From a virus (Duplodnaviria; Heunggongvirae; Uroviricota; Caudoviricetes), in the IMG/VR virus record IMGVR_UViG_2703718823_000001, positions 1 to 13,174 of that record: a stretch of DNA of 13,174 nt. One strand, given 5' to 3'. Each line of letters opens with the position of its first letter. The first letter of the stretch is position 1. Under the pieces are notes generated by a model that saw nothing but the letters and a program-made list of their open reading frames with translations, was not told the origin of the DNA and ran no database searches. Shown here piece after piece: positions 1-13,174 of this stretch. A program made the translations under genes and the position numbers.

Positions 1-527
1 CAAAAATCAAATACGGCCTGTCGGCTGTCGTTCTGGCGCTGATTGCCGCAGGGGCTTCTGCGCCTGAAATCCTCGACCAGTTTCTGGATGAAAAGGAAGG
101 TAACCACACCACGGCATACCGTGATGGTGCGGGTATCTGGACCATCTGCCGTGGAGCCACCCGGGTGGATGGTAAGCCTGTGATTCCTGGCATGAAGCTG
201 TCGAAGGAAAAATGCGACCGGGTTAACGCTATCGAACGGGATAAGGCGCTGGCATGGGTGGCGAAAAACATCAGAGTGCCACTGACCGAACCTCAGAAAG
301 CGGGTATTGCGTCATTCTGCCCGTATAACATTGGCCCCGGTAAGTGTTTCCCGTCGACGTTTTATAAACGAATTAATGCAGGCGATCGCAGAGGAGCGTG
401 TGAAGCGATTCGCTGGTGGATTAAGGACGGTGGCAGAGACTGCCGTATCCGCTCAAATAATTGCTACGGTCAGGTATCTCGTCGCGACCAGGAGAGTGCG
501 CTGGCGTGCTGGGGTATCGACAGATAA
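1..527 (+). CDS. R: Endolysin, T4-lysozyme-like muramidase with apparent SAR (signal-anchor-release) N-terminal domain; 5' end lies upstream of window
   Basis: Frame 0 is open from nt 3 to the TAA at 525-527. It translates to KIKYGLSAVVLALIAAGASAPEILDQF... (Gly/Ala-rich, weakly hydrophobic, SAR-like) followed by E(96-98)-x8-D(123-125)-x5-T(141-143), the spacing of the T4 lysozyme catalytic triad. It sits directly upstream of Rz/Rz1. Confidence 0.85.
   Translation, partial: KIKYGLSAVVLALIAAGASAPEILDQFLDEKEGNHTTAYRDGAGIWTICRGATRVDGKPVIPGMKLSKEKCDRVNAIERDKALAWVAKNIRVPLTEPQKAGIASFCPYNIGPGKCFPSTFYKRINAGDRRGACEAIRWWIKDGGRDCRIRSNNCYGQVSRRDQESALACWGIDR
412..419 (+). other. Chi octamer 5'-GCTGGTGG-3' (RecBCD hotspot sequence), inside the endolysin gene
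   Basis: Exact octamer match read in the sequence. The orientation is the one that is active for RecBCD entering from the right-hand cos end. Confidence 0.55.
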
Positions 528-682
528 GCAGAATATTTTGCTGAAAAGCCTGTAACTGATGACATCAGCAGAGCACTGGCTTTTGCCATTAAGTGGGTGG
601 CGGTCGGTGTTGCTGTGTCCCCGATGCTGTATGGGCTGGCAAAACTGGTCATTGCGTTGAAATCGTGAAGGGAGGATTAAGC

Positions 683-814
683 ATGTCAGACAAACTCATA
701 ACGCTGGCGAAGATCCTCTGTGTAATTGTCGGCATTTCATTTTCACTAATGCTGGTTGCTCTTTTTCTTTCCATGGCCTGGATGATGTTGTCTTCGTCGG
801 GGCTGCTGGGGTGA
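683..814 (+). CDS. Hypothetical small single-pass membrane protein (43 aa) between endolysin and Rz
   Basis: ATG at 683 is preceded by a strong Shine-Dalgarno (AAGGGAGGA, 6-nt spacer). Product [43 protein letters not shown] has one long hydrophobic segment. Its TGA stop (812-814) overlaps the Rz GTG (811-813), suggesting translational coupling. No homolog recognised from memory. Confidence 0.5.
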
Positions 815-1284
815 ACATAAACCGAATGCTTTCCGCGTTTATCGTTATTCTGCTGGTGGCCTGTGGAGCGCTGTGGATGGCAACAGACCATTACCGTGAT
901 AACGCGATTACCTACAAAGCGCAGCGCGATAACAAAGCCAGTGAACTGAAGCTGGCGAACGCAACCATTACTGATATGCAGGTGCGCCAGCGCGATGTTG
1001 CTGCGCTCGATGCAAAATACTCGAGGGAATTAGCCGATGCGAGAGCTGAAAATGAAACTCTTCGCGCTGACGTTGCCGCTGGTCGTAAGCGCCTGCGGAT
1101 CAACGCCACCTGCCACGGTACCGTGCGTGAAGCCCCCACCACCTCCGGCGTGGATAATGCAACCGGCCCCCGACTGGCAGACACCGTTACACGGGATTAT
1201 TTCACCCTCAGAGAGCGGCTGATGACGATGCAGAAGCAACTGGAAGGGGCGCAGGAATATATCCGTACTCAGTGCATTAAGTAG
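811..1284 (+). CDS. Rz: i-spanin (inner-membrane spanin subunit) Rz
   Basis: Product has an N-terminal TM helix followed by ...[14 protein letters not shown]...DVAALDAKY...[28 protein letters not shown], co-linear with lambda Rz as I recall it. Start may be GTG 811 (coupled to upstream ORF) or ATG 826. Confidence 0.9.
852..859 (+). other. Chi octamer 5'-GCTGGTGG-3', inside Rz
   Basis: Exact octamer match, same orientation as the copy at 412-419. Confidence 0.55.
1037..1222 (+). CDS. Rz1: o-spanin (outer-membrane lipoprotein spanin subunit) Rz1, embedded in the +1 frame of Rz
   Basis: Product [20 protein letters not shown]... has a lipobox (VSAC) and the proline-rich [22 protein letters not shown] core, closely matching lambda Rz1 as recalled. 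It lies entirely within Rz in another frame, as in lambda. Confidence 0.85.
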
Positions 1285-1307
1285 TCTTTTTATTATCCGG
1301 AGGATGT

Positions 1308-1532
1308 ATGAAGAAATTACTGGTAACCGTAAAGCCTTTTCAGGGAACAATTCCGTTCCGTATTTTGCAGCGTGGTCGTGTTCTTGTTGAAGGTTCGTTC
1401 AGTGGTAAATGTACGCAATTACACTCCCGGACCTTTCAGGTGAATGCCACGAATGAAGAGCTAACCGTTGAGTGTACGATGAATGCCGCTAAATGCCGCA
1501 TGGTATCCGCTGCATTACAGCCAGTGTGTTGA
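1308..1532 (+). CDS. Hypothetical 74-aa Cys-containing protein in the 'moron' position between spanins and cos
   Basis: ATG at 1308 is preceded by GGAGG (1299-1303). Product MKKLLVTVKPFQGTIPFRILQRGRVLVEGSFSGKCTQLHSRTFQVNATNEELTVECTMNAAKCRMVSAALQPVC has 4 Cys and no obvious signal peptide or TM segment. It occupies the slot where lambda carries bor on the opposite strand. No homolog recognised. Confidence 0.45.
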   Translation: MKKLLVTVKPFQGTIPFRILQRGRVLVEGSFSGKCTQLHSRTFQVNATNEELTVECTMNAAKCRMVSAALQPVC

Positions 1533-1759
1533 GCGACCTTATTATCCATGCGCGGTATTGTCGCCGTATTCCTGCATTAACAGAGACCGCAGCCCGACAG
1601 GGAGACTCCTCTGCGAGAGTGTGCGGGGATAATCAAAAACGATACACACCGGGGTTTACCGCGTTAACGGAGCGCGGCGTTGTCCCCTCATGGTCGCTGG
1701 TCCGGTGCGATGGTGGAAGAAACTGGATTTTGTTGCAACTGACAATCATTATCATTTTG

Positions 1760-1836
1760 CCGGGTCCTTTCCGGCGATCCGGGCCGTTACGGGGCGGCGA
1801 CCTCGCGGGTTTTCGCTATTTATGAAAATTTTCCGG
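1760..1836 (+). other. cos: cosQ/cosN region of a lambda-type cohesive-end site; predicted 12-nt cohesive end GGGCGGCGACCT at 1792-1803
   Basis: 1792-1836 (GGGCGGCGACCTCGCGGGTTTTCGCTATTTATGAAAATTTTCCGG) matches the lambda left end as I recall it. The preceding ...GGGTCCTTTCCGG.GATCCG...GTTACG closely resembles the lambda right end. The small terminase start lies about 195 bp downstream of the predicted end, as in lambda. Confidence 0.8.
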
Positions 1837-1840
1837 GATC

Positions 1841-1948
1841 CATGTCCGGTTTCTCTGCAAGTTAACCATATGAAAAATATAAAAACATGCTTTCCATGAA
1901 CCGGACATGCGCAAAAAATAGACACTAAAACCGGACATGACCGGTTTT
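1841..1948 (+). repeat. cosB-like cluster: four copies of a 12-bp element CATGTCCGGTTT in both orientations, separated by A-tract-rich spacer
   Basis: 1841-1852 CATGTCCGGTTT (forward). 1898-1909 GAACCGGACATG (reverse, 11/12). 1928-1939 AAACCGGACATG (reverse, 12/12). 1937-1948 CATGACCGGTTT (forward, 11/12, overlapping the previous copy to form a near-palindrome). The cluster lies between cosN and the small terminase gene, where lambda has its R3-I1-R2-R1 sites. Confidence 0.6.
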
Positions 1949-1986
1949 GTTGTGATTGTGAGGTGAGAGTTTTTGCGAGGTGAGGA

Positions 1987-2496
1987 GTGGCTACGCAGAC
2001 TGAAGTTGCCAGGCATTTAAGTCTGACCGATCGCCAGCTTCGCAGATTGCAGAAATTGCCGGGTGCCCCGATATCGAATAAGCGAGGGCAACTGGATCTG
2101 GATGCCTGGCGCGATTTTTACATATCGTATCTGAGAAGAAGTAAAAACGATGTGCCTGATGGCGATAGCGAAGACGACTATGAGGAGAAATTGCTTATTG
2201 CCAGATGGGAACTGACAGCAGAACAGGCTGTTACACAGCAGTTAAAAAATGAGGTGTCAAAAGGAAAACTTATTGACACCGGGTTCTGTATTTTTGCCCT
2301 CAGCAAGCTGGCAATGGCGTTATCCAGTACGCTTGATTCCATCCCTTTATCCATGCAGCGACAGTTTCCTGATTTAACACCGCGCCATCTTGACCATCTG
2401 AAAACCCTTATTGCGAAGGGGGCAAATCAGTGTGCGCGGGCGGGGGATAAATTACCGGATTTACTCGATGAATATATCAGAGCAACAACTGAATAA
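1987..2496 (+). CDS. Terminase small subunit (cos-binding DNA packaging protein); Nu1-like C-terminal region, non-lambda N-terminal HTH region
   Basis: GTG start at 1987 with GAGG 6 nt upstream; no in-frame ATG nearby. The C-terminal part (...GFCIFALSKLAMALSSTLDSIPLSMQRQFPDLTPRHLDHLK...LPDLLDEYI) aligns with lambda Nu1 C-terminus as recalled. The N-terminal part (MATQTEVARHLSLTDRQLRRLQKLPGAP...) does not resemble lambda Nu1. Its 3' end overlaps the large terminase start. Confidence 0.85.
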   Translation: MATQTEVARHLSLTDRQLRRLQKLPGAPISNKRGQLDLDAWRDFYISYLRRSKNDVPDGDSEDDYEEKLLIARWELTAEQAVTQQLKNEVSKGKLIDTGFCIFALSKLAMALSSTLDSIPLSMQRQFPDLTPRHLDHLKTLIAKGANQCARAGDKLPDLLDEYIRATTE

Positions 2497-4396
2497 TATG
2501 ATGAGTGCTGTCACAACAGCATTACAGCCCCTGATAAGGGCATTGCCGGTGACGCCAGTTGAATGGGCTGATCAAAATTATTATCTGCCTAAAGAATCTT
2601 CATATGGTGAGGGAGAATGGAAAACGCTGCCGTTCCAGATCGCCATCATGAACAGCATGGGGAATGATCAGATCCGGACTGTTAATCTGATTAAATCTGC
2701 CCGTGTTGGCTATACAAAGATGTTGCTGGGAGTCGCCGGGTATTTTATTGAGCATAAATCCCGAAACAGTCTGCTTTTTCAGCCCACGGATTCTGCCGCT
2801 GAAGATTTTATGAAGTCTCACGTGGAGGCGACGATTCGCGATGTTCCCTGCCTGAAAAAACTTTCTCCCTGGCTGGGACGTAAACATCGTGATAATACCA
2901 TCACGCTGAAACGCTTTTCATCGGGTGTGGGCTTCTGGTGCCTGGGCGGCGCTGCCGCCAAAAACTACCGTGAAAAATCCGTGGACGTGGTCTGCTATGA
3001 CGAACTTTCCTCGTTCGAGCCGGATGTCGAAAAAGAGGGCTCGCCAACCCTGCTGGGGGATAAGCGTATTGAGGGCTCGGTATGGCCAAAATCCATTCGC
3101 GGCTCGACGCCTAAAATAAAAGGCTCCTGCCAGATCGAAAAAGCGGCCAACGAGTCGGCACATTTCATGCGTTTTTATGTGCCCTGCCCGCACTGCGGGG
3201 AGGAGCAGTATCTGAAATTTGGCGATGAGTCCACGCCTTTTGGCCTTAAATGGGAGAAGGACAGTCCCGAAAGTGTTTTCTACCTCTGTGAACATCATGG
3301 CTGCGTGATCCATCAGTCTGAACTGGACCAGAGCAACGGGCGGTGGATCTGTGAAAACACGGGGATGTGGACCCGCGACGGTCTGACGTTTTTCAGCGCC
3401 GCGGATAATGAAATTCCGCCGCCGCGCTCCATCACATTCCATATCTGGACGGCGTACAGTCCGTTCACCACCTGGGTACAGATTGTCTATGACTGGCTGG
3501 ATGCACTGAAAGATCCCAACGGCCTGAAAACCTTTGTGAACACCACGCTGGGCGAGACCTGGGAAGAGGCCGTGGGCGAAAAACTCGATCACCAGGTGCT
3601 GATGGATAAGGTTGTGCGTTACACGGCTGCGGTGCCTTCCCGGGTGGTTTATCTGACGGCGGGCATTGACTCGCAGCGAAACCGTTTTGAGATGTATGTC
3701 TGGGGATGGGCTCCGGGAGAGGAAGCCTTTCTGGTGGATAAAATCATCATTATGGGGCGTCCCGATGAGGAAGAGACGCTGTTACGTGTGGATGTGGCGA
3801 TCAACAAAAAATACCGCCATGCAGACGGAACCGAAATGACCATTTCCCGTGTCTGCTGGGACACCGGGGGGATCGATGGCGAAATTGTCTATCAGAGGTC
3901 AAAAAAACACGGTGTTTTCCGGGTGCTGCCGGTAAAAGGTGCATCTGTTTATGGCAAGCCGGTGATCACCATGCCAAAAACCCGCAATCAGCGGGGCGTG
4001 TATCTGTGCGAAGTGGGGACGGACACCGCAAAAGAAATTCTCTATGCCCGTATGAAAGCCGATCCCACGCCTGCGGATGAAGCCACGTCGTATGCCATCC
4101 GTTTTCCTGATGATCCGGAGATTTTTTCGCAGACAGAGGCGCAGCAACTGGTGGCGGAAGAGCTTGTGGAGAAGTGGGAAAAAGGAAAGATGCGTCTGCT
4201 GTGGGATAACAAAAAGCGGCGTAACGAAGCGCTGGACTGCCTGGTGTATGCCTACGCGGCATTACGTGTGTCCGTGCAACGCTGGCAACTTGATCTGGCT
4301 GTACTGGCAAAATCCCGGGAAGAAGAGACGACCCGGCCAACCCTTAAAGAACTGGCAGCGAAGCTGTCCGGAGGAGTGAATGGTTACAGTCGCTGA
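2468..4396 (+). CDS. A: Terminase large subunit (ATPase/endonuclease), lambda gpA-like
   Basis: Product starts MNISEQQLNN... and is co-linear along its whole length with lambda gpA as recalled (e.g. VEWADQNYYLPKES, KSARVGYTKMLLGV, FWCLGGAAAKNYREKSVDV, CPHCGEEQYLKFGD, YLTAGIDSQ, WDNKKRRNEALDC). The ORF-track start at 2411 is a TTG-initiated upstream extension, judged unlikely. Confidence 0.95.
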   Translation: MNISEQQLNNMMSAVTTALQPLIRALPVTPVEWADQNYYLPKESSYGEGEWKTLPFQIAIMNSMGNDQIRTVNLIKSARVGYTKMLLGVAGYFIEHKSRNSLLFQPTDSAAEDFMKSHVEATIRDVPCLKKLSPWLGRKHRDNTITLKRFSSGVGFWCLGGAAAKNYREKSVDVVCYDELSSFEPDVEKEGSPTLLGDKRIEGSVWPKSIRGSTPKIKGSCQIEKAANESAHFMRFYVPCPHCGEEQYLKFGDESTPFGLKWEKDSPESVFYLCEHHGCVIHQSELDQSNGRWICENTGMWTRDGLTFFSAADNEIPPPRSITFHIWTAYSPFTTWVQIVYDWLDALKDPNGLKTFVNTTLGETWEEAVGEKLDHQVLMDKVVRYTAAVPSRVVYLTAGIDSQRNRFEMYVWGWAPGEEAFLVDKIIIMGRPDEEETLLRVDVAINKKYRHADGTEMTISRVCWDTGGIDGEIVYQRSKKHGVFRVLPVKGASVYGKPVITMPKTRNQRGVYLCEVGTDTAKEILYARMKADPTPADEATSYAIRFPDDPEIFSQTEAQQLVAEELVEKWEKGKMRLLWDNKKRRNEALDCLVYAYAALRVSVQRWQLDLAVLAKSREEETTRPTLKELAAKLSGGVNGYSR

Positions 4397-4586
4397 ACTG
4401 CAGGCGCTGCGTCAGGCGCGCCTTGATTTATTAACCGGTAAACGGGTGGTGTCTGTCCAGAAAGATGGTCGCAGAATTGAATATACGGCGGCCTCTCTGG
4501 ATGAGCTTAACCGGGCGATCAATGATGCTGAGTTGGTACTGGGGACAACCCGCCGTCGCCGTCGTCCGCTGGGAGTGAGGTTATGA
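4380..4586 (+). CDS. W: Head-tail joining / head completion protein, lambda gpW-like (68 aa)
   Basis: Product contains ...LLTGKRVVSVQKDGRRIEYTAASLDEL...RRRRRPLG, same length as and similar to lambda gpW as recalled. GAGGAG lies 3 nt upstream of the ATG. Overlaps the end of A and the start of B (ATGA). Confidence 0.9.
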   Translation: MVTVAELQALRQARLDLLTGKRVVSVQKDGRRIEYTAASLDELNRAINDAELVLGTTRRRRRPLGVRL

Positions 4587-6175
4587 AACGAAAGCCTGTC
4601 CTGATTGATGTGAACGGCGTTCCGCTTCGGGAGAGCCTCAGCTACAACGGGGGCGGTGCAGGATTTGGCGGGCAAATGGCAGAGTGGTTGCCACCCTCGC
4701 AGAGTGCCGATGCGGCCCTGCTGCCCGCGTTGCGTCTGGGGAATGCCCGTGCAGATGATCTGGTGCGCAATAACGGAATAGCGGCCAATGCGGTGGCCCT
4801 GCATAAGGATCACATTGTCGGGCATATGTTTCTGATTAGCTACCGTCCGAACTGGCGCTGGCTGGGGATGCGGGAGACCGCGGCAAAAAGTTTTGTCGAT
4901 GAGGTGGAGGCGGCCTGGTCAGAATACGCAGAAGGGATGTTTGGTGAGATCGACGTGGAAGGGAAACGCACGTTTACGGAATTTATCCGTGAAGGTGTGG
5001 GCGTTCATGCGTTTAACGGCGAAATCTTTGTGCAGCCGGTCTGGGATACGGAGAGCACGCAACTGTTTCGTACGCGTTTTAAAGCCGTGAGTCCGAAACG
5101 GGTGGACACGCCAGGACACGGTATCGGGAACCGTTTTCTGCGGGCCGGGGTGGAGGTTGATCGATATGGCCGTGCCGTTGCGTACCATATCTGTGAGGAT
5201 GATTTTCCTCGCTCCGGGAGTGGACGATGGGAACGGATCCCGCGTGAACTTCCCACCGGGCGTCCGGCCATGCTGCATATTTTCGAGCCGGTGGAGGACG
5301 GGCAGACCCGTGGGGCCAACCAGTTTTACAGCGTCATGGAACGGCTGAAGATGCTCGATTCCCTGCAGGCAACACAGCTTCAGTCGGCCATTGTTAAAGC
5401 CATGTATGCAGCGACGATTGAAAGTGAACTTGATACCGAAAAGGCCTTTGAATATATCGCCGGTGCGCCGCAGGGGCAGAAGGATAATCCGCTTATTAAT
5501 ATTCTGGATAAGTTCTCCACCTGGTATGACACGAATAGCGTGACGCTGGGCGGTGTCAAAATTCCGCACCTTTTCCCTGGTGATGATCTGAAACTTCAGA
5601 CCGCGCAGGATTCAGACAATGGATTTTCGGCGCTTGAACAGGCGCTGCTGCGGTATATCGCTGCCGGTCTTGGCGTTTCCTACGAACAGTTGTCCCGTGA
5701 TTACTCGAAGGTCAGTTACTCAAGTGCCCGCGCCTCCGCCAATGAGTCGTGGCGCTATTTTATGGGGCGGCGAAAATTTATTGCGGCCCGGCTGGCCACG
5801 CAGATGTTTTCCTGCTGGCTGGAAGAGGCACTTCTTCGGGGGATTATTCGTCCGCCACGGGCACGTTTTGATTTTTATCAGGCGCGTTCAGCCTGGTCAC
5901 GGGCTGAGTGGATTGGTGCCGGAAGAATGGCCATTGACGGGCTCAAGGAGGTTCAGGAATCGGTGATGCGTATTGATTCCGGACTGAGCACGTATGAGAA
6001 AGAGCTGGCGCTGATGGGCGAGGATTATCAGGACATTTTCCGCCAGCAGGTCAGGGAATCTGCAGAGCGGGAAAAAGCCGGACTCTCACGTCCGGTGTGG
6101 ATAGCGCAGGCGTATCAGCAGCAGATAGCGGAGAGTCGCAGGCCGGAAGAGGAGACAACACCACGTGAGACGTAA
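4583..6175 (+). CDS. B: Portal protein, lambda gpB-like
   Basis: 530-aa product in the position and of the size of lambda gpB (about 533 aa), between W and C, with start overlapping the W stop. Confidence 0.93.
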   Translation: MKRKPVLIDVNGVPLRESLSYNGGGAGFGGQMAEWLPPSQSADAALLPALRLGNARADDLVRNNGIAANAVALHKDHIVGHMFLISYRPNWRWLGMRETAAKSFVDEVEAAWSEYAEGMFGEIDVEGKRTFTEFIREGVGVHAFNGEIFVQPVWDTESTQLFRTRFKAVSPKRVDTPGHGIGNRFLRAGVEVDRYGRAVAYHICEDDFPRSGSGRWERIPRELPTGRPAMLHIFEPVEDGQTRGANQFYSVMERLKMLDSLQATQLQSAIVKAMYAATIESELDTEKAFEYIAGAPQGQKDNPLINILDKFSTWYDTNSVTLGGVKIPHLFPGDDLKLQTAQDSDNGFSALEQALLRYIAAGLGVSYEQLSRDYSKVSYSSARASANESWRYFMGRRKFIAARLATQMFSCWLEEALLRGIIRPPRARFDFYQARSAWSRAEWIGAGRMAIDGLKEVQESVMRIDSGLSTYEKELALMGEDYQDIFRQQVRESAEREKAGLSRPVWIAQAYQQQIAESRRPEEETTPRET

Positions 6176-7670
6176 TCTTTCACACATTATTGCAGCAGCA
6201 TTCAATGAACCGCTGCTTCTGGAGCCCGCCTATGCGCGGGTTTTCTTTTGCGCGCTCGGGCGCGAGATGGGGGCAGCAAGTCTTTCGGTACCACAACAGC
6301 AGGTACAGCTTGATGCACCCGGAATGCTGGCTGAAACGGACGAGTACATGGCCGGAGGTAAACGACCGGCCCGTGTTTACCGGGTGGTGAACGGTATTGC
6401 TGTACTGCCGGTCACAGGCACGCTGGTGCACCGGCTGGGGGGTATGCGGCCATTTTCCGGAATGACAGGCTATGACGGCATTGTCGCCTGTCTTCAGCAG
6501 GCAATGGCGGATAGCCAGGTGCGGGGTGTACTGCTGGACATTGACAGTCCGGGCGGGCAGGCCGCCGGTGCGTTTGACTGTGCTGACATGATTTACCGCC
6601 TCCGTCAGCAGAAGCCGGTCTGGGCACTGTGCAATGACACGGCCTGTTCTGCAGCCATGCTGCTGGCGTCGGCCTGCTCCCGACGGCTGGTTACCCAGAC
6701 ATCCCGTATCGGCTCCATTGGCGTGATGATGAGCCATGTCAGCTATGCCGGTCATCTGGCGCAGGCCGGTGTGGATATCACGCTGATTTACTCAGGGGCG
6801 CACAAGGTGGATGGCAATCAGTTTGAAGCGTTGCCGGAAGAGGTTCGCCAGGACATGCAGCAGCGGATTGATGCGGCGCGCCGGATGTTTGCCGAAAAAG
6901 TGGCGATGTATACCGGTCTGTCTGTTGATGCAGTCACGGGAACAGAGGCCGCCGTTTTTGAAGGTCAGTCCGGCATTGAGGCCGGGCTGGCGGATGAATT
7001 AATCAATGCGTCGGATGCCATCAGCGTGATGGCTGCGGCGCTGAACACACATGATACAGGAGGCACTATGCCGCAATTAACTGCAACGGAAGCTGCCGCG
7101 CAGGAGAACCAGCGAGTGATGGGGATCCTGGCGTGTCAGGAAGCGAAAGGACGTGAACACCTTGCCACGATGCTGGCAGGACAACAGGGCATGAGCGTTG
7201 AACAGGCCCGGGCGATTCTGACCGCGGCAGCACCACAGCAGCCGGTGGCATCCACGCAGAGTGAAGCCGATCGCATTATGGCGTGTGAAGAAGCTAAAGG
7301 TCGTGAACAACTGGCGGCAACGCTGGCGGCGATGCCGGATATGACGGTGGAAAAAGCCCGCCCGATCCTGGCGGCTTCACCGCAGGCGGATGCCGGACCC
7401 TCACTCCGTGATCAGATTATGGCTCTGGATGAGGCAAAAGGGGCTGAGGCGCAGGCTGAAAAACTGGCGGCGTTTCCCGGAATGACGGTGGAGGCTGCCC
7501 GCGACATTCTGTCCTCATCGCCGGATAAAGCAGAACCGGTTTCTGCATCCACAACCGCCATGTTTGAACGCATCATGGCGAACCATTCACCGGCAGCCGT
7601 GCAGGGTGGCGTGTCACAGACGTCGGCAGACGGTGATGCGGACGTGAAAATGCTCATGGCCATGCCATGA
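6165..7670 (+). CDS. C: Prohead protease / scaffold protein, lambda gpC-like (S49/ClpP-type serine peptidase domain plus C-terminal scaffold region)
   Basis: GTG start overlapping the B stop. N-terminal region (...AFNEPLLLEPAYARVFFCAL..., GVLLDIDSPGGQAAGAFDCADMI, VWALCNDTACSAAMLLASACSRRLVTQTSRIGSIGVMMSH, ITLIYSGAHKVDGN) matches lambda gpC as recalled. The C-terminal third is a repetitive helical region. Confidence 0.9.
   Translation: MRRNLSHIIAAAFNEPLLLEPAYARVFFCALGREMGAASLSVPQQQVQLDAPGMLAETDEYMAGGKRPARVYRVVNGIAVLPVTGTLVHRLGGMRPFSGMTGYDGIVACLQQAMADSQVRGVLLDIDSPGGQAAGAFDCADMIYRLRQQKPVWALCNDTACSAAMLLASACSRRLVTQTSRIGSIGVMMSHVSYAGHLAQAGVDITLIYSGAHKVDGNQFEALPEEVRQDMQQRIDAARRMFAEKVAMYTGLSVDAVTGTEAAVFEGQSGIEAGLADELINASDAISVMAAALNTHDTGGTMPQLTATEAAAQENQRVMGILACQEAKGREHLATMLAGQQGMSVEQARAILTAAAPQQPVASTQSEADRIMACEEAKGREQLAATLAAMPDMTVEKARPILAASPQADAGPSLRDQIMALDEAKGAEAQAEKLAAFPGMTVEAARDILSSSPDKAEPVSASTTAMFERIMANHSPAAVQGGVSQTSADGDADVKMLMAMP
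7068..7670 (+). CDS. Nu3: Nested in-frame scaffold protein (Nu3-like), translated from an internal start within C
   Basis: In-frame ATG at 7068 preceded by GGAGG (7059-7063, 4-nt spacer). It encodes 200 aa sharing the C terminus of C. This mirrors the C/Nu3 nested arrangement of lambda. Confidence 0.6.
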   Translation: MPQLTATEAAAQENQRVMGILACQEAKGREHLATMLAGQQGMSVEQARAILTAAAPQQPVASTQSEADRIMACEEAKGREQLAATLAAMPDMTVEKARPILAASPQADAGPSLRDQIMALDEAKGAEAQAEKLAAFPGMTVEAARDILSSSPDKAEPVSASTTAMFERIMANHSPAAVQGGVSQTSADGDADVKMLMAMP

Positions 7671-7706
7671 AGTCAGTGCTGACCATCAATATGAGGTTTT
7701 AACAAA

Positions 7707-8054
7707 ATGGTGACGAAAACCATCACTGAACAACGTGCGGAAGTACGTATTTTTGCCGGTAATGATCCGGCTCATACCGCCACAGGCAGCAGCGGGATTT
7801 CTCAGGCAACACCGGCTCTGACGCCCCTGATGCTGGATGAAGCCAGCGGGAAACTGGTGGTCTGGGATGGACAGAAAGCCGGTAGTGCGGCTGGCATACT
7901 GGTACTGCCGCTTGAAGGCACAGAGACGGTGCTGACCTATTACAAGTCGGGGACCTTTGCGACGGAGGCAATCCGCTGGCCTGACAGTGTGGATGAACAC
8001 AAAAAGGCAAATGCCTTTGCCGGTACAGCCCTGAGTCACGCGGCTCTGCCGTAA
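7707..8054 (+). CDS. D: Head decoration / capsid stabilisation protein, lambda gpD-like
   Basis: Product contains ...NDPAHTATG...TPLMLD...KLVVWDG...AGILV...YYKSGTF...AFAGTA, co-linear with lambda gpD as recalled. Confidence 0.9.
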   Translation: MVTKTITEQRAEVRIFAGNDPAHTATGSSGISQATPALTPLMLDEASGKLVVWDGQKAGSAAGILVLPLEGTETVLTYYKSGTFATEAIRWPDSVDEHKKANAFAGTALSHAALP

Positions 8055-8061
8055 CACGTTA

Positions 8062-8083
8062 TCAGGCCACCATGGTGGCCTGA
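8062..8083 (+). other. Perfect 22-bp palindrome TCAGGCCACCATGGTGGCCTGA in the D-E intergenic region (potential RNA hairpin or protein-binding site)
   Basis: The sequence is exactly self-complementary. It lies 8 nt after the D stop and 29 nt before the E start. It is not followed by a clear U-tract. Confidence 0.5.
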
Positions 8084-8111
8084 CTGATTTCTGAATGAAA
8101 GGAACTGATTT

Positions 8112-9140
8112 ATGGGATTGTTTACGACCCGCCAGTTACTCGGTTATACCGAACAAAAAGTGAAATTCCGTGCGCTGTTTCTGGAGCTGTTTTTCCGCCG
8201 TACGGTGAATTTCCACACCGAAGAGGTGATGCTGGACAAAATTACCGGAAAAACGCCGGTGGCAGCCTATGTCTCCCCGGTTGTTGAAGGAAAAGTGCTT
8301 CGCCATCGCGGTGGTGAAACCCGCGTGTTACGTCCGGGCTACGTCAAGCCCAAACACGAATTTAATTACCAGCAGGCGGTTGAGCGCCTTCCTGGTGAAG
8401 ATCCGGCTCAGCTGAATGACCCGGCCTACCGTCGTCTGCGTATCATTACCGATAACCTCAAACAGGAAGAGCACGCCATTGTCCAGGTGGAAGAAATGCA
8501 GGCGGTGAATGCCGTGCTGTATGGCAAATACACCATGGAAGGGGATCAGTTTGATACTGTCGAGGTGGATTTCGGGCGCTCTGAAGGAAATAACATTGAG
8601 CAGGCTGACGGTAAAAAATGGTCTGAGCAGGACCGTGATACGTTTGATCCGACGCATGATATTGACCTCTACTGCGATCAGGCCAGCGGCCTTGTGAATA
8701 TCGCCATTATGGACGGTACGGTCTGGCGTCTGCTGAATGGCTTTAAGCTGTTCCGCGAAAAACTGGATACCCGTCGCGGCTCAAATTCACAACTCGAAAC
8801 GGCAGTGAAAGACCTGGGGGCGGTGGTGTCCTTCAAGGGGTATTACGGCGATCTGGCCATTGTGGTGGCGAAAACGTCTTATGTGGCAGAGGACGGTACC
8901 GAAAAACGTTATCTGCCGGAGGGCACACTGGTCCTGGGGAATACGGCAGCAGAGGGCATTCGTTGCTATGGTGCCATTCAGGATGCGCAGGCGTTGTCCG
9001 AAGGTGTGGTGGCCTCTTCCCGTTATCCGAAACACTGGCTGACTGTGGGCGATCCGGCCCGTGAATTCACCATGACGCAGTCCGCTCCGCTGATGGTGCT
9101 GCCGGATCCGGATGAGTTTGTGGTGGTACAGGTGAAATAA
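8112..9140 (+). CDS. E: Major capsid protein, lambda gpE-like
   Basis: 342-aa product (lambda gpE is about 341 aa) with long co-linear matches (PGYVKPKHE, DPAYRRLRII, VEEMQAVNAVLYGKYTMEGD, KLDTRRGSNSQLETAVKDLG, GDPAREFTMTQSAPLMVLPDPDEF). Confidence 0.95.
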   Translation: MGLFTTRQLLGYTEQKVKFRALFLELFFRRTVNFHTEEVMLDKITGKTPVAAYVSPVVEGKVLRHRGGETRVLRPGYVKPKHEFNYQQAVERLPGEDPAQLNDPAYRRLRIITDNLKQEEHAIVQVEEMQAVNAVLYGKYTMEGDQFDTVEVDFGRSEGNNIEQADGKKWSEQDRDTFDPTHDIDLYCDQASGLVNIAIMDGTVWRLLNGFKLFREKLDTRRGSNSQLETAVKDLGAVVSFKGYYGDLAIVVAKTSYVAEDGTEKRYLPEGTLVLGNTAAEGIRCYGAIQDAQALSEGVVASSRYPKHWLTVGDPAREFTMTQSAPLMVLPDPDEFVVVQVK

Positions 9141-9148
9141 TCCGTGAG

Positions 9149-9177
9149 CGGGGGCGAAATGCCCCCGTGTCTTTTTT
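9149..9177 (+). terminator. Candidate rho-independent terminator or attenuator immediately downstream of E
   Basis: GC stem CGGGGGC (9149-9155) and GCCCCCG (9161-9167) with loop GAAAT, followed by TTTTTT (9172-9177). It begins 9 nt after the E stop. Confidence 0.65.
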
Positions 9178-9191
9178 CACAGGAGGCTGAG

Positions 9192-9575
9192 ATGGCAACA
9201 AAAGAAGAAAATCTGAATCGTCTTCGTCAACTGGCTGGCCTGCTGGGGCGCGAGGCGGATATGTCGGGGAGTGCTGCGGATATTGCTCAACGTGTGTCTG
9301 AGTGGGAAGAGGAGCTTGCTGTTTCCCCGGAGGGCATTATGCACTCTGATGAGAGCGGGGCTGATCAAAATCACACAGACGATGGTGAGCAGTTGAACAA
9401 CACGGATGCTCCGGATGATGTTAAAGCCGTCCGGGTACGGAAGTGCCTGCAAGTAATGGGGTATTGCCCGGAGACAGGTCGTCCCGTTGAGCTGGCGTTA
9501 CGGGGTATGCGTGTTCTGGTGCCATCATCACTGGCAACGGCCATGATACAGCACGGAACGGCTGAATATGCGTGA
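9192..9575 (+). CDS. FI: DNA packaging / head assembly accessory protein, lambda gpFI-like
   Basis: ATG at 9192 with AGGAGG 5 nt upstream. Product of about 127 aa with an N-terminal helical part, an acidic low-complexity linker and a C-terminal domain. Assignment rests on position between E and FII and on size, similar to lambda FI. Confidence 0.75.
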   Translation: MATKEENLNRLRQLAGLLGREADMSGSAADIAQRVSEWEEELAVSPEGIMHSDESGADQNHTDDGEQLNNTDAPDDVKAVRVRKCLQVMGYCPETGRPVELALRGMRVLVPSSLATAMIQHGTAEYA

Positions 9576-9921
9576 TTTTCAGAATGCCTTTGATGCTGCC
9601 CTCGCCGGGGTGGACAGTACGATCGTTGAAGTGATGGGGATCCGTGCGCAGTTCACCTCTGGAGCACAACGTGGCGGCGAAGTTCAGGGGGTTTTTGACG
9701 ATCCGGAGTCGCTGGGTTTTGCCGGTGGCGGGGTCCGTATTGAAGGAAGCAGCCCGTCATTATTTGTGCGGACGGATACGGTGCGTGCCGTGCGGCGTGG
9801 TGACACGCTGACCATTAACGGCGAGATGTTCTGGGTGGATCGTGTTTCTCCGGATGACGGGGGAAGCTGTTATCTCTGGCTCAACCGTGGGCAACCACCC
9901 GCTGTTAACCGGCGACGATAA
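9568..9921 (+). CDS. FII: Head-tail connector protein, lambda gpFII-like
   Basis: Product contains ...GVFDDPE...GGGVRIEGSSPSLFVRTD.VR..RRGDTLTI....FWVDRVSPDDGGSCYLWL.RG.PPAVNRRR, nearly co-linear with lambda gpFII as recalled, including the C terminus. Confidence 0.92.
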   Translation: MRDFQNAFDAALAGVDSTIVEVMGIRAQFTSGAQRGGEVQGVFDDPESLGFAGGGVRIEGSSPSLFVRTDTVRAVRRGDTLTINGEMFWVDRVSPDDGGSCYLWLNRGQPPAVNRRR

Positions 9922-9936
9922 ACGCAGGGTGAAATT

Positions 9937-10470
9937 ATGGCGATAAAAGGGCTTGATCAGGCGATTGACAATCTGAGCCGGGTTCGTAAAAACGCCATTC
10001 CGGCGGCTTCAGCAATGGCCATTAACCGCGTGGCCACAACGGCGATTAATCAGTCTTCATCACAGGTTGCCCGGGAGACAAAGGTTCGCCGGAAACTGGT
10101 TAAGGAACGGTCCAGACTGAAACGGGCCACGGTCAGAAATCCGAATGCCAGAATTATCGTTAACCGCGGTGATCTCCCTGTGATTAAGCTGGGGATCAGG
10201 ATGCTGGGGCGTCGCCCGAACAGCATACTTAAAGCCGGTCAGCATCGGTATCAGCGGGCATTTATTCAGCGATTAAAAAATGGTCGCTGGCATGTCATGC
10301 AGCGTGTGGCCGGGAAAAACCGTTACCCCATTGATGTGGTGAAAATCCCGATGGCGGCCCCACTGAAACAGGCATTTGATGAGAATGTTGACCGTATCCG
10401 GCGTGAACGCCTGCCTAAAGAACTGGCATACGCGCTGAAACAACAACTGAGGATTGCGATAAAACGATGA
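9937..10470 (+). CDS. Z: Tail completion protein, lambda gpZ-like
   Basis: 177-aa product in the gpZ position between FII and U. Its stop overlaps the U start (ATGA). Confidence 0.85.
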   Translation: MAIKGLDQAIDNLSRVRKNAIPAASAMAINRVATTAINQSSSQVARETKVRRKLVKERSRLKRATVRNPNARIIVNRGDLPVIKLGIRMLGRRPNSILKAGQHRYQRAFIQRLKNGRWHVMQRVAGKNRYPIDVVKIPMAAPLKQAFDENVDRIRRERLPKELAYALKQQLRIAIKR

Positions 10471-10862
10471 AACACACTGACATTCGTGCCGCAGTGCTGG
10501 ATGCACTCGAGCAGCATGAACACGGGGCGACGCTGTTTGATGGTCGCCCCGTTGTTTTTGACGAAGAGGATTTTCCTGCGATCGCGGTTTATCTGACGGA
10601 TGCAGAGTATACCGGTGAAGAGCTGGATGCAGATACCTGGCGGGCCACACTGCATATTGAGGTGTTTTTACCGGCACAGGTACCTGATTCGGAGCTCGAT
10701 CAGTGGATGGAAAGCCGGATTTATCCGGCGATGACTGCGATCCCTGCACTGGCAGGACTGATTACCACGATGGTTACGCAGGGCTATGAGTATCGTCGTG
10801 ATGACGATATGGCGTTATGGAGCTCTGCGGATCTGACTTATTCCATTACATACGAGATGTGA
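10467..10862 (+). CDS. U: Tail terminator protein, lambda gpU-like
   Basis: 131-aa product, the same length as lambda gpU, in conserved order between Z and V. Confidence 0.88.
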
Positions 10863-10869
10863 GGACGAT

Positions 10870-11622
10870 ATGGCAACACCAAATCCCCTGGAGCCGGTAA
10901 AAGGTGCCGGTACCACTCTGTGGGTTTACAACGGCAAGGGTGATGCTTATGCAAACCCGTTGTCAGACGATGACTGGCAGCGACTGGCTAAGGTGAAGGA
11001 TCTGACGCCGGGCGAGATGACGGCAGAACCCTACGATGATAACTACCTGGATGATGAAGACGCGGACTGGACCGCGACCGGGCAGGGGCAGAAGTCTGCA
11101 GGAGATACCAGTTTTACGCTGGCCTGGAAACCGGGAGAAGATGGTCAGAAAGGGCTTATAGGCTGGTTTGAAAGCGGGGATGTGCGGGCCTATAAAATCC
11201 GTTTTCCGAACGGCACGGTGGATGTGTTTCGTGGCTGGGTCAGCAGTATCGGTAAGGCCGTGACGGCGAAAGAAGTGATCACCCGCACGGTGAAAGTGAC
11301 CAACGTGGGCAAACCTTCCGTGGCGGAAGAACGCAGCAAAATTACGCCGGTCACTGCAATTAAGGTGACACAGACATCCGGTACCGTGGAAAAAGGAAAA
11401 ACAACCACCCTGACGGTTTCTTTTGAGCCGGAAAGTGCAACCGACAAGACGTTCAGAGCGGTTTCCGCCGATCCGTCAACGGGAACCATTGCTGTGAAAG
11501 ATATGGTGATCACTGTGACGGGGATTAAGGCCGGAAAAGTGAGTATCCCCGTGATTTCCGGTAATGGTCAGTTTGCCACGGTAGCTGAAGTCACCGTTAC
11601 TGAAGCGGGCGCTGCAGGGTAA
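10870..11622 (+). CDS. V: Major tail tube protein with C-terminal Ig-like domain, lambda gpV-like
   Basis: Product has long identical stretches to lambda gpV as recalled ([102 protein letters not shown]). The C-terminal roughly 90 aa are Thr/Val-rich and beta-rich (Ig-like). Confidence 0.95.
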
Positions 11623-11635
11623 ACGGAGGTAATAC

Positions 11636-12067
11636 ATGTTTCTGAAAACAGAACAATTTGAATATAACGGTGTATCCGTCATGCTTTCTGAGCTGTCTGC
11701 GCTGCAGCGTATTGAGCATCTTGCCCTCCTGAAACGGCGGGCAGAAGAGGCTGAAGCCAGCGGCAACCTGCAGGTGAGTGTGGAAGATCTTGTCAGAACC
11801 GGCGCGTTTCTGGTGGCGATGTCCCTGTGGCATAACCATCCACAGAAAACGCAGTCACCGTCAATGAATGAGGCCGTGATGAAGATAGAGCAGGAAGTGC
11901 TCACCACCTGGCCTGCCGATGCCATTGCCCGGGCGGAAGAGGTGGTGTTACGTCTGTCCGGGATGAGCGGGGCTGTTCATGCGGATACTGACAGCACCGA
12001 AGTGGCGAAAAATAACGCGCTTACTGATGATGATTTTTCTGCGGGAAAGTTTTCGACGGCGAGCTGA
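11636..12067 (+). CDS. G: Tail assembly chaperone, lambda gpG-like
   Basis: Product MFLKTEQFEYNGVSVMLSELSALQRIEHLALLKRR...GAFLVAMSLWHNHPQKTQSPSMNEAV... is nearly identical in places to lambda gpG as recalled. GGAGG precedes the ATG. Confidence 0.92.
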   Translation: MFLKTEQFEYNGVSVMLSELSALQRIEHLALLKRRAEEAEASGNLQVSVEDLVRTGAFLVAMSLWHNHPQKTQSPSMNEAVMKIEQEVLTTWPADAIARAEEVVLRLSGMSGAVHADTDSTEVAKNNALTDDDFSAGKFSTAS

Positions 12068-12507
12068 ATTTTGCCCTCAGACTGGCGCGTGAGATGGGGA
12101 GGCCTGACTGGCGCGCCATGCTTGCCGGGATGACATCCACCGAATATGCCGACTGGCGACATTTTTACCGCACGCATTATTTTCAGGATACCCAACTGGA
12201 TATGCATTTTTCCGGGCTGATGTACGCCGTACTCAGCCTGTTTTTTTGCGATCCGGATATGCATCCCTCGGATTTCAGTCTGCTGGCTCCCCGGCGAGAG
12301 GAAGCGCAGACGGAGATGCCGGATGAGGAAGACATGCTGATGCAGAAAGCGGCAGGACTTGCCGGAGGCGTCCGGTTCGGTGGGGAGGGAGGGGGCGATA
12401 TTTCACCTTCTGCAGATGTGGTGGATGTCAGCGAGGATGATGTTGCATTAATGATGGCTTCAGCGGGGATTTCCGGAGGTGTGAGATATGTCCCAGCCGG
12501 TTGGTGA
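11636..12507 (+). CDS. GT: Tail assembly chaperone G-T fusion produced by -1 frameshift at 12043-12049
   Basis: The -1 frame after the slippery site reads ...DGELNFALRLAREMGRPDWRAMLAGMTSTEYADWRHFYRTHYF...LMQKAAGLAGGVRFG...GGVRY, co-linear with lambda gpT as recalled. The T frame has no independent start with a ribosome-binding site. Confidence 0.8.
12043..12049 (+). promoter_or_regulatory. Programmed -1 ribosomal frameshift slippery heptamer G GGA AAG for the G-T fusion
   Basis: GGGAAAG lies in the G zero frame as G-GGA-AAG, 18 nt before the G stop. The -1 frame is open from here to 12507 and encodes a gpT-like sequence. Confidence 0.85.
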
Positions 12508-13174
12508 TCTTGTTATTGACCTGAGTCTGGATGCTGTCCGTTTCGATGAGCAGATGAGCCGGGTAAGGCGTCATTTTTCAGGACTGGATACCGACGCCAG
12601 AAAAACCGCCGGTGCCGTTGAGCAGAGTCTGAACCGTCAGGCGCTGGCCGCACAAAAAGCCGGGATTTCCGTCGGGCAGTATAAAGCAGCCATGCGTACC
12701 CTGCCCGCACAGTTTACGGATATCGCCACGCAGCTTGCCGGTGGTCAGAATCCCTGGCTCATCCTGCTGCAACAGGGCGGTCAGGTGAAGGACTCCTTCG
12801 GCGGGATGATCCCCATGTTCAGGGGGCTTGCCGGTGCGATCACCCTGCCGATGGTCGGGGTCACCTCGCTGGCGGTGGCGACAGGTGCGCTGGCGTACGC
12901 CTGGTACCAGGGGGATTCCACGCTTTCAGAATTTAATAAAACGCTGGTCCTTTCCGGCAATCAGGCCGGACTGACTGCCGATCGTATGCTGACGCTCTCA
13001 AGAGCCGGGCAGGCAGCAGGGCTGACGTTTAACCAGGCGAGAGAGTCACTGGCAGCCCTGGTGAATGCCGGTGTGCGTGGTGGTGAACAGTTTGATGCCA
13101 TTAACCAGAGTGTCGCGCGTTTTGCGTCTGCATCCGGTGTGGAGGTGGATAAAGTCGCTGAAGCCTTCGGGAAG
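12489..13174 (+). CDS. H: Tail tape measure protein, lambda gpH-like; 3' end lies beyond window
   Basis: ATG at 12489 with GGAGG upstream, overlapping the end of T. Product MSQPVGDLVIDLSLDAVRFDEQMSRVRRHFSG...GISVGQYKAAMRTLPAQFTDIATQLAGGQNPWLILLQQGGQVKDSFGGMIPMFRGLAGAITLPMVG... closely matches the lambda gpH N-terminus as recalled. Confidence 0.93.

What the first reader, a model, noticed from the sequence alone, without database searches (positions are those of the whole stretch)
412..859. Two Chi octamers within about 1.4 kb of the right cos end, in the RecBCD-active orientation
GCTGGTGG occurs at 412-419 and 852-859 on the + strand, and I found no copy on the other strand in the window. RecBCD recognises Chi when approaching from its 3' side. 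A nuclease entering at the right-hand cos end (upstream of 1803) and moving leftward would meet both sites in the active orientation almost immediately. That would attenuate degradation of linear or rolling-circle phage DNA and stimulate recombination. Wild-type lambda lacks Chi, so this may reflect host-adapted protection.
Basis: partly seen in the sequence, partly recalled or inferred. Interest (0 to 1): 0.4.

Follow-up and report, generated by a model that had tools for sequence, protein, structure and literature searches.

The report
Two ordinary Chi sites beside cos
Two copies of the E. coli recombination signal Chi lie inside the lysis genes of a lambda-like prophage, about 1 kb from its packaging cut site and facing the way the host nuclease RecBCD would arrive; this arrangement is already published for lambda-like phages, and two sites are no more than this window's coding sequence would give by chance.

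Summary
GCTGGTGG occurs at 412-419 and 852-859 on the + strand and nowhere on the - strand. A lambda-identical cohesive end lies at 1792-1803, so the sites are 1372 and 932 bp from the right cos end. They face the orientation RecBCD reads when entering from that end.

The count and orientation are not unusual here. Both octamers are in-frame coding sequence: endolysin cGC-TGG-TGG (Arg-Trp-Trp) and Rz spanin CTG-CTG-GTG-Gcc (Leu-Leu-Val-Ala). Synonymous-codon shuffles of the window predict 1.6 forward and 0.05 reverse sites, with P(≥2 forward) about 0.49.

The idea is already published. Bobay et al. 2013 and Zheng et al. 2025 showed that lambdoid phages without their own recombination or anti-RecBCD genes are Chi-rich. 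Their Chi sites cluster toward the right end in this orientation. The endolysin site has a homologue in their model phage LLS.

Site 1 is conserved in 60 of 67 Arg-Trp-Trp homologues across Enterobacterales. Site 2 is polymorphic.

The window is a whole 13-kb contig, so the phage's recombination genes and total Chi count cannot be seen. Close relatives include both the Chi-rich and the Abc2-encoding, Chi-poor kinds.

Verdict: a real, probably usable pair of Chi sites, and an instance of a known pattern. Low novelty.

The parts
412..419 (+). Chi octamer 1. It lies in frame in the endolysin gene as cGC-TGG-TGG (Arg-Trp-Trp).
   Evidence: Exact match and translation. Chi is present in 55 of 55 homologous IMG/VR loci and in 60 of 67 Arg-Trp-Trp homologues from Enterobacterales genomes. 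The homologous site in phage LLS is at 41190.
852..859 (+). Chi octamer 2. It lies in frame in the N-terminal membrane segment of Rz as CTG-CTG-GTG-Gcc (Leu-Leu-Val-Ala).
   Evidence: Exact match and translation. The site is polymorphic: 28 related loci carry Chi, and 31 carry GTA at the valine codon and have no Chi.
3..527 (+). [quoted passage not shown] Its 5' end is cut off by the contig end.
   Evidence: Pfam PF00959 Phage_lysozyme, E = 3e-24. The gene call runs off the contig start. The homologue in LLS is annotated as a SAR endolysin.
826..1284 (+). Rz i-spanin gene.
   Evidence: Pfam PF03245 Phage_lysis, E = 1.2e-48; gene call.
1037..1222 (+). Rz1 o-spanin gene, embedded in Rz in another frame.
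   Evidence: The translation shows a lipobox (LVVSAC) and a PPPPPAW motif. The assignment is by resemblance to lambda Rz1 as I recall it. The embedded position matches the lambda annotation.
1740..1836 (+). cos region homologous to lambda cos. The cohesive end GGGCGGCGACCT is at 1792-1803.
   Evidence: Local alignment to the joined lambda ends; the 12-mer is identical.
1841..1939 (.). Three copies of the 11-mer AACCGGACATG, at 1899-1909 and 1929-1939, with an inverted copy at 1841-1851. They are probably cosB binding sites for the small terminase subunit.
   Evidence: Repeat search. The role is inferred from position between cosN and nu1 and from the lambda R3/R2/R1 arrangement, which I cite from established knowledge.
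1987..4396 (+). Terminase genes nu1 (1987-2496) and A (2468-4396). [quoted passage not shown]
   Evidence: Pfam Phage_Nu1, E = 1e-18; GpA_ATPase and GpA_nuclease on the gene call. The occlusion of this side by terminase is inferred from lambda (PMC12315714).

Best explanation
These are two genuine E. coli-type Chi octamers inside the lysis genes of a cos-packaging lambdoid prophage. They lie 0.9 and 1.4 kb left of cosN, on the strand that makes them readable by RecBCD travelling leftward from the right cos end.

Proposed mechanism (inferred from lambda genetics and the LLS study, not shown for this phage):
1. Terminase cuts cos in replicating or concatemeric DNA.
2. Terminase stays on the nu1 side, so the right end is free.
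3. RecBCD enters that end, meets these sites within about 1.4 kb and stops degrading.
4. RecBCD then loads RecA, and the end is used for recombination that protects phage DNA and rebuilds packageable concatemers.

The two sites are the cos-proximal members of a known pattern. Lambdoid phages that lack their own recombination/anti-RecBCD module have a Chi-enriched right arm. The sites would be largely irrelevant if this phage encodes Gam or Abc2.

Site 1 (endolysin Arg-Trp-Trp) is old and widely conserved, and may be held by selection. Site 2 (Rz Leu-Leu-Val-Ala) is a recent, polymorphic site that preferred codons produce readily.
For: Anatomy:
- Exact octamers, + strand only.
- cos is identical to lambda's cohesive end at 1792-1803.
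- Terminase genes lie to its right.

Published model and experiment:
- Chi-rich Rec-less lambdoids have sites clustered at the right end in this orientation, and LLS grows better with RecBCD (PMC12315714).
- Chi is concentrated between ori and cos (PMC3784561).

Same site in the model phage:
- LLS carries the homologous endolysin Chi at 41190, one of its 20 active-orientation sites.

Relatives that carry the endolysin Chi and have no annotated recombination or anti-RecBCD gene in the early operon (for Stx2_95 and ASU11 read by me from the annotation tables) and no lambda-Red, Abc2 or Erf homologue by tblastn:
- STEC2018-607 prophage: 12 forward / 3 reverse; both of the window's sites are its nearest to cos.
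- Stx2_95: 15 forward / 3 reverse.
- ASU11: 16 forward / 3 reverse.
- LLS: 20 forward / 3 reverse.
- LLS and the STEC prophage exceed the synonymous-shuffle expectation in 0 of 400 shuffles.

Family level, 80 Enterobacterales loci (921 kb):
- 388 forward Chi against 122 +/- 7 expected.
- Chi is the top octamer of its composition: 388 against a mean of 21.
- The strongest orientation-specific excess is in the spanin-to-cos segment: forward O/E 5.0, reverse O/E 1.75.

Synonymous constraint at site 1:
- The Arg codon is CGC in 60 of 67 homologues, against 30-62% at eight other conserved Arg columns. It has the second-lowest codon entropy of 108 columns.
Against: - In the window itself nothing exceeds expectation: 2 forward observed against 1.4-1.6 expected, and 0.05-0.07 reverse expected.
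- Given the proteins, each site forms with probability of about 0.2.
- The orientation ratio in the family (6.8:1) is about what the coding strand predicts (6.2:1). Upstream of the endolysin, both orientations are enriched about threefold.
- The CGC signal at site 1 is weakened by a general codon-context effect. Arg before Trp is CGC in 59.5% of cases against 30% overall.
- Site 2 is lost by a synonymous GTG-to-GTA change in about half of close relatives.
- The closest phage, PhiR12_2_star, carries both sites yet encodes Abc2 and Erf, and it is not Chi-enriched.
- The loci compared are related to one another, so counts overstate the number of independent events.
Confidence: 0.55

Rival explanations
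1. The sites are coding by-products with no selected role. They exist because the endolysin needs Arg-Trp-Trp (TGG is the only Trp codon and CGC-TGG is the preferred pairing) and because a membrane helix reads Leu-Leu-Val-Ala in E. coli's commonest codons. RecBCD could read them, but nothing maintains them for that purpose.
For: - The synonymous shuffle of the window expects 1.57 forward and 0.05 reverse sites, with P(>=2) = 0.49. P(Chi given protein) is 0.23 for site 1 and 0.20 for site 2.
- CGC precedes Trp in 59.5% of Arg-Trp pairs generally.
- Site 2 is absent through a synonymous change in 31 of 59 close homologues.
- Both sites are present in a phage that encodes Abc2 and whose total Chi count is at expectation.
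- Chi-like octamers with one mismatch are also twice as frequent as expected, mostly on the coding strand. This points to a compositional or codon cause.
Against: - At site 1, CGC is used in 90% of homologues (84% after removing identical contexts), against a context baseline of about 60%.
- Family-wide, forward Chi is 3.2 times the synonymous-shuffle expectation, and 5 times in the spanin-to-cos segment with no matching reverse excess there.
- Same-composition octamers are far rarer: mean 21, next-best 111, against 388 for Chi.
- LLS, the published model of this phage class, grows better with RecBCD (PMC12315714).
Confidence: 0.33
2. The sites serve the host chromosome rather than the phage particle. 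As part of an integrated, possibly defective prophage, the DNA has acquired or retained Chi like any other E. coli DNA. Its orientation would then suit RecBCD repair of broken replication forks, and the relation to cos would be incidental.
For: - Both papers raise this. Prophages may accumulate Chi as the chromosome does, and Chi in prophages may stabilise the element (PMC12315714; PMC3784561).
- Upstream of the lysis genes, both orientations are enriched about 3- to 4.6-fold, as expected of host-like enrichment.
- In strain STEC2018-607 the prophage lies next to cmoA-cmoB-torZ. Its 12 forward sites lie on the strand that I infer, from the E. coli K-12 map recalled from memory, to be the leading strand there.
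Against: - Free-living phages (LLS, ASU11, the Stx2 phages) show the same pattern.
- Bobay et al. found no difference between phages and prophages.
- Near cos and in the head genes only the cos-active orientation is enriched: reverse O/E is 1.2-1.75.
- The chromosomal orientation of this contig is unknown.
Confidence: 0.1

Closest known systems
Chi-rich lambdoid phages without a recombination module (phage LLS class; Zheng, Casjens, Davidson, Amundsen and Smith 2025, Genome Res 35:1767, PMC12315714; first noted by Bobay, Touchon and Rocha 2013, PLoS Genet, PMC3784561)
   Same: - It is a cos-packaging lambdoid phage of E. coli.
- Chi lies on the top strand to the left of cos, in the orientation read from the right end.
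- The endolysin Chi is the homologue of LLS site 41190.
- Relatives with 97-99% identical head genes include a prophage of this class.
   Different: - Only two sites are visible here, and they match expectation.
- The defining features cannot be seen, because the contig ends in the endolysin gene. These features are the absence of a recombination module and eight or more active-orientation sites.
- The closest phage is of the opposite class, with Abc2 and Erf.
Chi+ mutations of lambda red gam (chi A-D) and the cos-Chi orientation rule (Lam 1974; Faulds 1979; Kobayashi 1982; Taylor 1985, as cited in PMC12315714)
   Same: The octamer is the same. The geometry is the same: Chi is active only when RecBCD comes from the right cos end.
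   Different: Those sites are laboratory mutations selected in phages deprived of Red and Gam. The sites here are natural and lie within coding sequence, and their activity has not been measured.
Chi over-representation in the E. coli chromosome
   Same: Chi is the top octamer of its composition in these prophage regions. It is about three times above codon-based expectation. E. coli has an O/E of about 2.3 under Bobay's model.
   Different: Chromosomal Chi is polarised by replication direction (established knowledge). Near cos, the polarity here follows the packaging end and the late-operon coding strand.

Membership tests
Chi site (E. coli-type RecBCD hotspot) | Exact octamer 5'-GCTGGTGG-3' | tested here: met
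   Two exact copies, at 412-419 and 852-859 on the + strand.
Chi site (E. coli-type RecBCD hotspot) | Octamer oriented so that RecBCD reaches it from its 3' side, from an accessible double-strand end | tested here: met
   A cohesive end identical to lambda's lies at 1792-1803, to the 3' side of both sites. That the right end is the open one is inferred from lambda (PMC12315714).
Chi site (E. coli-type RecBCD hotspot) | Host whose RecBCD recognises this octamer | tested here: inconclusive
   The contig is LOJC01000069.1 of assembly GCA_001606435.1, and the organism name was not returned. The best matches, at 97-99% identity, are all E. coli chromosomes and E. coli phages.
Chi site (E. coli-type RecBCD hotspot) | Measured stimulation of recombination, or Chi-dependent cutting by RecBCD | not testable with these tools
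   This needs genetic crosses or an enzyme assay.
Chi-rich, recombination-module-less lambdoid phages (LLS class) | Lambdoid genome organisation with cos packaging | tested here: met
   The gene order is endolysin, Rz/Rz1, cos, nu1, A, W, portal, protease, D, E and tail genes. cos is confirmed.
Chi-rich, recombination-module-less lambdoid phages (LLS class) | No recombinase, exonuclease or anti-RecBCD genes in the early left operon | not testable with these tools
   The window is the whole contig and holds no early genes. Relatives are of both kinds.
Chi-rich, recombination-module-less lambdoid phages (LLS class) | Many Chi sites (eight or more) in the active orientation, above expectation | tested here: inconclusive
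   The 13 kb available holds 2 forward and 0 reverse sites, equal to expectation. In Chi-rich relatives most sites lie 7-15 kb left of cos, outside this contig.
Chi-rich, recombination-module-less lambdoid phages (LLS class) | Sites concentrated toward the right end rather than in the head and tail genes | tested here: met
   Both sites lie in the 1.8 kb left of cos, and there are none in the 11.4 kb of head and tail genes. With two sites this is weak evidence.

The most novel reading that the evidence does not exclude
The endolysin Arg-Trp-Trp codons (cGC-TGG-TGG) may be a dual-use sequence: a conserved protein motif whose one free base is held by selection. Lambdoid phages across Enterobacterales would then always carry a Chi within about 1.5 kb of the right cos end, acting as a fixed 'first stop' for RecBCD. 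The evidence does not exclude this. CGC is used in 60 of 67 homologues while neighbouring synonymous sites are scrambled. That figure compares with about 60% for Arg-before-Trp in general. The spanin-to-cos segment also shows the highest orientation-specific Chi excess.
Probability: 0.3. Interest if true: 0.35.

Novelty: already known. Interest (0 to 1): 0.17.

Why it matters
If the sites work as proposed, they mark this prophage as one that may use the host's RecBCD-RecA pathway for replication and packaging instead of blocking it. That choice affects host range, sensitivity to defences that sense RecBCD inhibition, and how readily the phage recombines with relatives, many of which carry Shiga toxin genes. 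The principle is already established and has been tested experimentally with phage LLS, so this window adds one small, incomplete example. The useful methodological point is that Chi orientation in a late operon cannot be read as evidence of function on its own. The coding strand alone predicts about a 30:1 bias in this window and about 6:1 across the family.

Tried and rejected
1. This was not possible. An exact-protein look-up showed the window is a complete 13,174-bp contig. No complete E. coli genome or phage record matches at 100%. A 60-mer scan of IMG/VR found 69 relatives but not the source.

2. Supplementary table of Zheng et al., which lists Chi counts and module class per phage. It is not held, so I sampled relatives myself.

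3. Orientation as evidence of function. I rejected this as an independent argument. Synonymous shuffles predict the bias.

4. Synonymous conservation at site 1. It first looked very strong, at 90% CGC against 40% at other Arg columns. The Arg-before-Trp control raised the baseline to about 60%, so I downgraded it to suggestive.

5. Synonymous conservation at site 2. I rejected this, because a GTA variant without Chi is as common as the Chi form.

6. Lambda 'avoids' Chi. My shuffle test expects only 1.3 forward and 1.1 reverse sites in lambda. Zero is therefore not significant for that single genome. The avoidance claim rests on the published multi-genome analysis.

7. Base composition as an explanation of the right-end concentration. 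The + strand has positive GC skew throughout. Same-composition octamers show only a 1.8:1 strand ratio and a mean of 21 copies, against 388 for Chi. Composition alone therefore does not explain the family-level excess.
Full report
**1. What is in the sequence**

GCTGGTGG occurs twice in the window, at 412-419 and 852-859 on the + strand, with no copy on the other strand.

The window is the late region of a lambda-like prophage. Gene calls and Pfam matches give this order:
- endolysin, with its 5' end missing (3-527; Phage_lysozyme)
- two small ORFs
- Rz i-spanin (826-1284; Phage_lysis), with an embedded Rz1 o-spanin (1037-1222)
- a 74-codon ORF
- nu1 (1987-2496) and terminase A (2468-4396)
- W, portal, protease/scaffold, D, E, FI, FII, Z, U, V, G, T and the start of the tape-measure gene

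Window 1740-1836 aligns with the joined ends of lambda. The 12-nt cohesive end GGGCGGCGACCT is identical and sits at 1792-1803. The two octamers therefore end 1372 and 932 bp from the right cos end.

**2. Is it more than chance?**

It is not, within this window.
- Dinucleotide shuffles give 0.69 sites on average, and 29 of 200 shuffles reach two.
- Both octamers are in-frame coding sequence. Site 1 is cGC-TGG-TGG (Arg-Trp-Trp) in the endolysin. Site 2 is CTG-CTG-GTG-Gcc (Leu-Leu-Val-Ala) in the membrane segment of Rz.
- I shuffled synonymous codons among the window's genes, keeping every protein and the codon usage. This predicts 1.57 forward and 0.05 reverse sites, with P(≥2 forward) = 0.49.
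- For the 1.8 kb right of the window start up to cos, the same shuffle predicts 0.92 forward sites, with P(≥2) = 0.23.
- Each site forms with probability of about 0.2 given its peptide. An independent ORF-based version of the test gives the same answer.
- At the E. coli density of one Chi per 4.6 kb (quoted in PMC12315714), the whole window would hold about 2.9 sites.
- The lack of a reverse copy is exactly what the coding strand predicts. The + strand also has positive GC skew throughout.

**3. Where the window comes from, and why the whole prophage cannot be counted**

The Rz protein is recorded on one contig, NCBI LOJC01000069.1 of assembly GCA_001606435.1. That contig is 13,174 bp long, so the window is the entire contig. 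It begins inside the endolysin gene and ends inside the tape-measure gene, as expected when an assembly breaks at sequences shared by several prophages. The early region, where recombination and anti-RecBCD genes lie, is not available. No complete E. coli genome or phage record is identical, and 69 IMG/VR relatives did not include the source.

**4. What is already known**

- Bobay, Touchon and Rocha (2013, PMC3784561) found that lambdoid phages without recombinases strongly over-represent Chi. The sites are concentrated between the replication origin and cos. Phages with a recombinase plus Gam or Abc2 lack Chi.
- Zheng, Casjens, Davidson, Amundsen and Smith (2025, PMC12315714) isolated phage LLS, which has no recombination module.
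- LLS has 20 Chi in the orientation active from the right end, against 3 in the other orientation, clustered at the right end. It grows better with RecB and RecC.
- They found 68 further Enterobacteriales lambdoid phages without a recognisable recombination module, most of them Chi-rich (62 with eight or more active-orientation sites). They restated the mechanism: terminase occludes the left end, and RecBCD enters the right end and meets top-strand Chi from its 3' side.
- They state that lambda, 21, 434, P22 and Sf6 have no Chi. I confirmed zero for lambda.

**5. How the two sites relate to that pattern**

Site 1 is the same site as one of LLS's published Chi. LLS carries ...GCA ATC CGC TGG TGG ATT AAA... 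(Cys-Glu-Ala-Ile-Arg-Trp-Trp-Ile-Lys) in its SAR endolysin at 41190, about 1.7 kb from its right end.

I compared complete relatives that carry the endolysin Chi. "No Red/Abc2/Erf homologue" refers to tblastn with five queries. For Stx2_95 and ASU11, "none annotated" is my reading of the annotation tables returned. This does not exclude other recombinase families such as RecT, Sak or Sak4.

| Relative | Recombination / anti-RecBCD genes | Chi forward / reverse |
|---|---|---|
| STEC2018-607 prophage (head genes 99% identical to the window; LLS-like yfdP-yfdQ-yfdR early operon) | none annotated; no Red/Abc2/Erf homologue | 12 / 3 |
| Stx2_95 | none annotated; no Red/Abc2/Erf homologue | 15 / 3 |
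| ASU11 | none annotated; no Red/Abc2/Erf homologue | 16 / 3 |
| LLS | no recombination module (published) | 20 / 3 |
| PhiR12_2_star (closest phage overall, 98.7%) | P22-type Abc2 (PF11043, E = 6e-64) and Erf (PF04404) | 4 / 1 |

In the STEC2018-607 prophage all the sites lie left of cos, and the window's two sites are the nearest to cos. PhiR12_2_star also carries both of the window's sites.

The synonymous-shuffle test separates these classes:
- LLS: 20 observed against 7.5 expected; 0 of 400 shuffles reach the observed count.
- STEC prophage: 12 observed against 4.9 expected; 0 of 400 shuffles reach it.
- PhiR12_2_star: 4 observed against 3.7 expected.
- Lambda: 0 observed against 1.3 expected.
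- The window: 2 observed against 1.4 expected.

The lysis-gene sites travel with a mosaic module found in both classes. The sites that make a phage Chi-rich lie mostly 7-15 kb left of cos, outside this contig.

**6. Are the two sites themselves under selection?**

Site 1:
- It has Chi in 55 of 55 homologous IMG/VR loci.
- Among 80 endolysin homologues from species-representative Enterobacterales genomes (69-95% protein identity), 67 keep Arg-Trp-Trp. Of those, 60 use CGC, 5 use CGT and 2 use AGG. The flanking Cys, Glu, Ala, Ile, Lys and Asp codons are thoroughly mixed.
- Eight other conserved Arg columns use CGC in 30-62% of sequences. The Chi column has the second-lowest codon entropy of 108 conserved degenerate columns.
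- A control weakens this result. In the same loci, Arg directly before Trp is CGC in 59.5% of cases, against 30% overall. Part of the signal is therefore a general CGC-TGG preference.
- I regard selection on site 1 as suggestive, not shown.

Site 2:
- It shows no such signal. 28 related loci have CTG-GTG-G, and 31 have GTA at the valine codon and no Chi.
- Some relatives have a third Chi 47 bp upstream, where the window reads GCTGCTGG.

**7. Family-level check of the published claim**

In the 80 genome loci (921 kb, oriented with the late operon):
- Chi occurs 388 times forward and 57 times reverse.
- It is the commonest of the 168 octamers of its composition on both strands. The + strand mean is 21 and the next-best count is 111.
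- Synonymous shuffles expect 122 ± 7 forward and 20 ± 4 reverse sites.
- Chi is therefore about threefold in excess. The orientation ratio (6.8:1) is close to what coding strand and codon usage predict (6.2:1).

By region:

| Region | Forward O/E | Reverse O/E |
|---|---|---|
| Upstream of the endolysin | 2.7-3.5 | 3.3-4.6 |
| Spanin to cos | 5.0 | 1.75 |
| Terminase and portal genes | 3.3 | 1.2 |

The orientation-specific part of the excess is therefore confined to the neighbourhood of cos and the head genes. That is compatible with the cos-entry model. The loci are related to one another, so these counts overstate the number of independent events.

**8. Mechanism, with shown and inferred steps**

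Shown here:
- the octamers, their strand, their coding context and their distance from a lambda-type cos
- their presence in relatives of both recombination classes

Established elsewhere:
- RecBCD reads Chi from the 3' side.
- The right cos end is the entry point in lambda.

Inferred for this phage:
- After terminase cuts cos, RecBCD entering the right end meets site 2 and then site 1 within 1.4 kb.
- It then switches from degradation to RecA loading.
- The end is recombined into another copy, which preserves DNA and generates concatemers.
- This matters only if the phage does not inhibit or reprogram RecBCD, which cannot be determined from the contig.

**9. Rivals**

(a) A pure coding by-product. 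The in-window statistics, the CGC-TGG context effect and the polymorphism at site 2 support this.

(b) A host-chromosome role for Chi in an integrated prophage. Both papers raise this, and the enrichment of both orientations upstream of the lysis genes fits it. Against it, free phages show the same pattern, and near cos only the cos-active orientation is enriched.

**10. Verdict**

That property is the presence or absence of an anti-RecBCD/recombination module. Novelty: already known. Interest: low.

Noticed in passing
window 1841-1851, 1899-1909, 1929-1939: The 11-mer AACCGGACATG occurs twice in direct orientation and once inverted, between cosN and the nu1 start. The layout resembles lambda's cosB sites R3, R2 and R1 for the small terminase subunit. 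The Nu1 protein matches the Pfam Nu1 family over only part of its length (residues 49-150), so this may be a distinct packaging specificity.
   Followed up: partly
window 1-13174: The window is an entire assembly contig (LOJC01000069.1, GCA_001606435.1). It starts inside the endolysin gene and ends inside the tape-measure gene, which suggests the genome holds several prophages sharing these sequences.
   Followed up: yes
window 1037-1222: An Rz1-type o-spanin gene is embedded in another frame of Rz. It has a lipobox (LVVSAC) and a proline-rich PPPPPAW motif.
   Followed up: partly
window 12043-12049: The heptamer GGGAAAG lies near the end of tail gene G. It is the same slippery sequence as the lambda G/T programmed -1 frameshift (lambda site recalled from memory).
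   Followed up: no
window, whole (e.g. 751-758, 802-809, 1078-1085, 4147-4154, 7853-7860): Octamers one mismatch from Chi are twice as frequent as expected: 31 observed against 15.5 ± 4, with 0 of 200 shuffles reaching 31. Of these, 25 are on the + strand. I did not assess which variants have partial Chi activity.
   Followed up: no
L075-L154 (80 Enterobacterales prophage loci): Arg codons directly before Trp are CGC in 59.5% of cases, against 30% for Arg overall. This codon-context preference by itself favours the GCTGG core of Chi and should be controlled for in any test of selection on Chi.
   Followed up: partly
L075-L154, region up to 7 kb upstream of the endolysin gene: Chi in the orientation that is inactive from the right cos end is also enriched 3.3- to 4.6-fold over the synonymous-shuffle expectation in the Q-to-holin region, but not downstream of the endolysin. 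The cos-entry model does not explain this.
   Followed up: partly
L013, L022, L026 and other IMG/VR relatives; window 802-809: Many relatives carry a third Chi (GATACGCTGGTGGTGAAATG) 47 bp upstream of site 2, just before the Rz start. The window has GCTGCTGG at the corresponding place.
   Followed up: no
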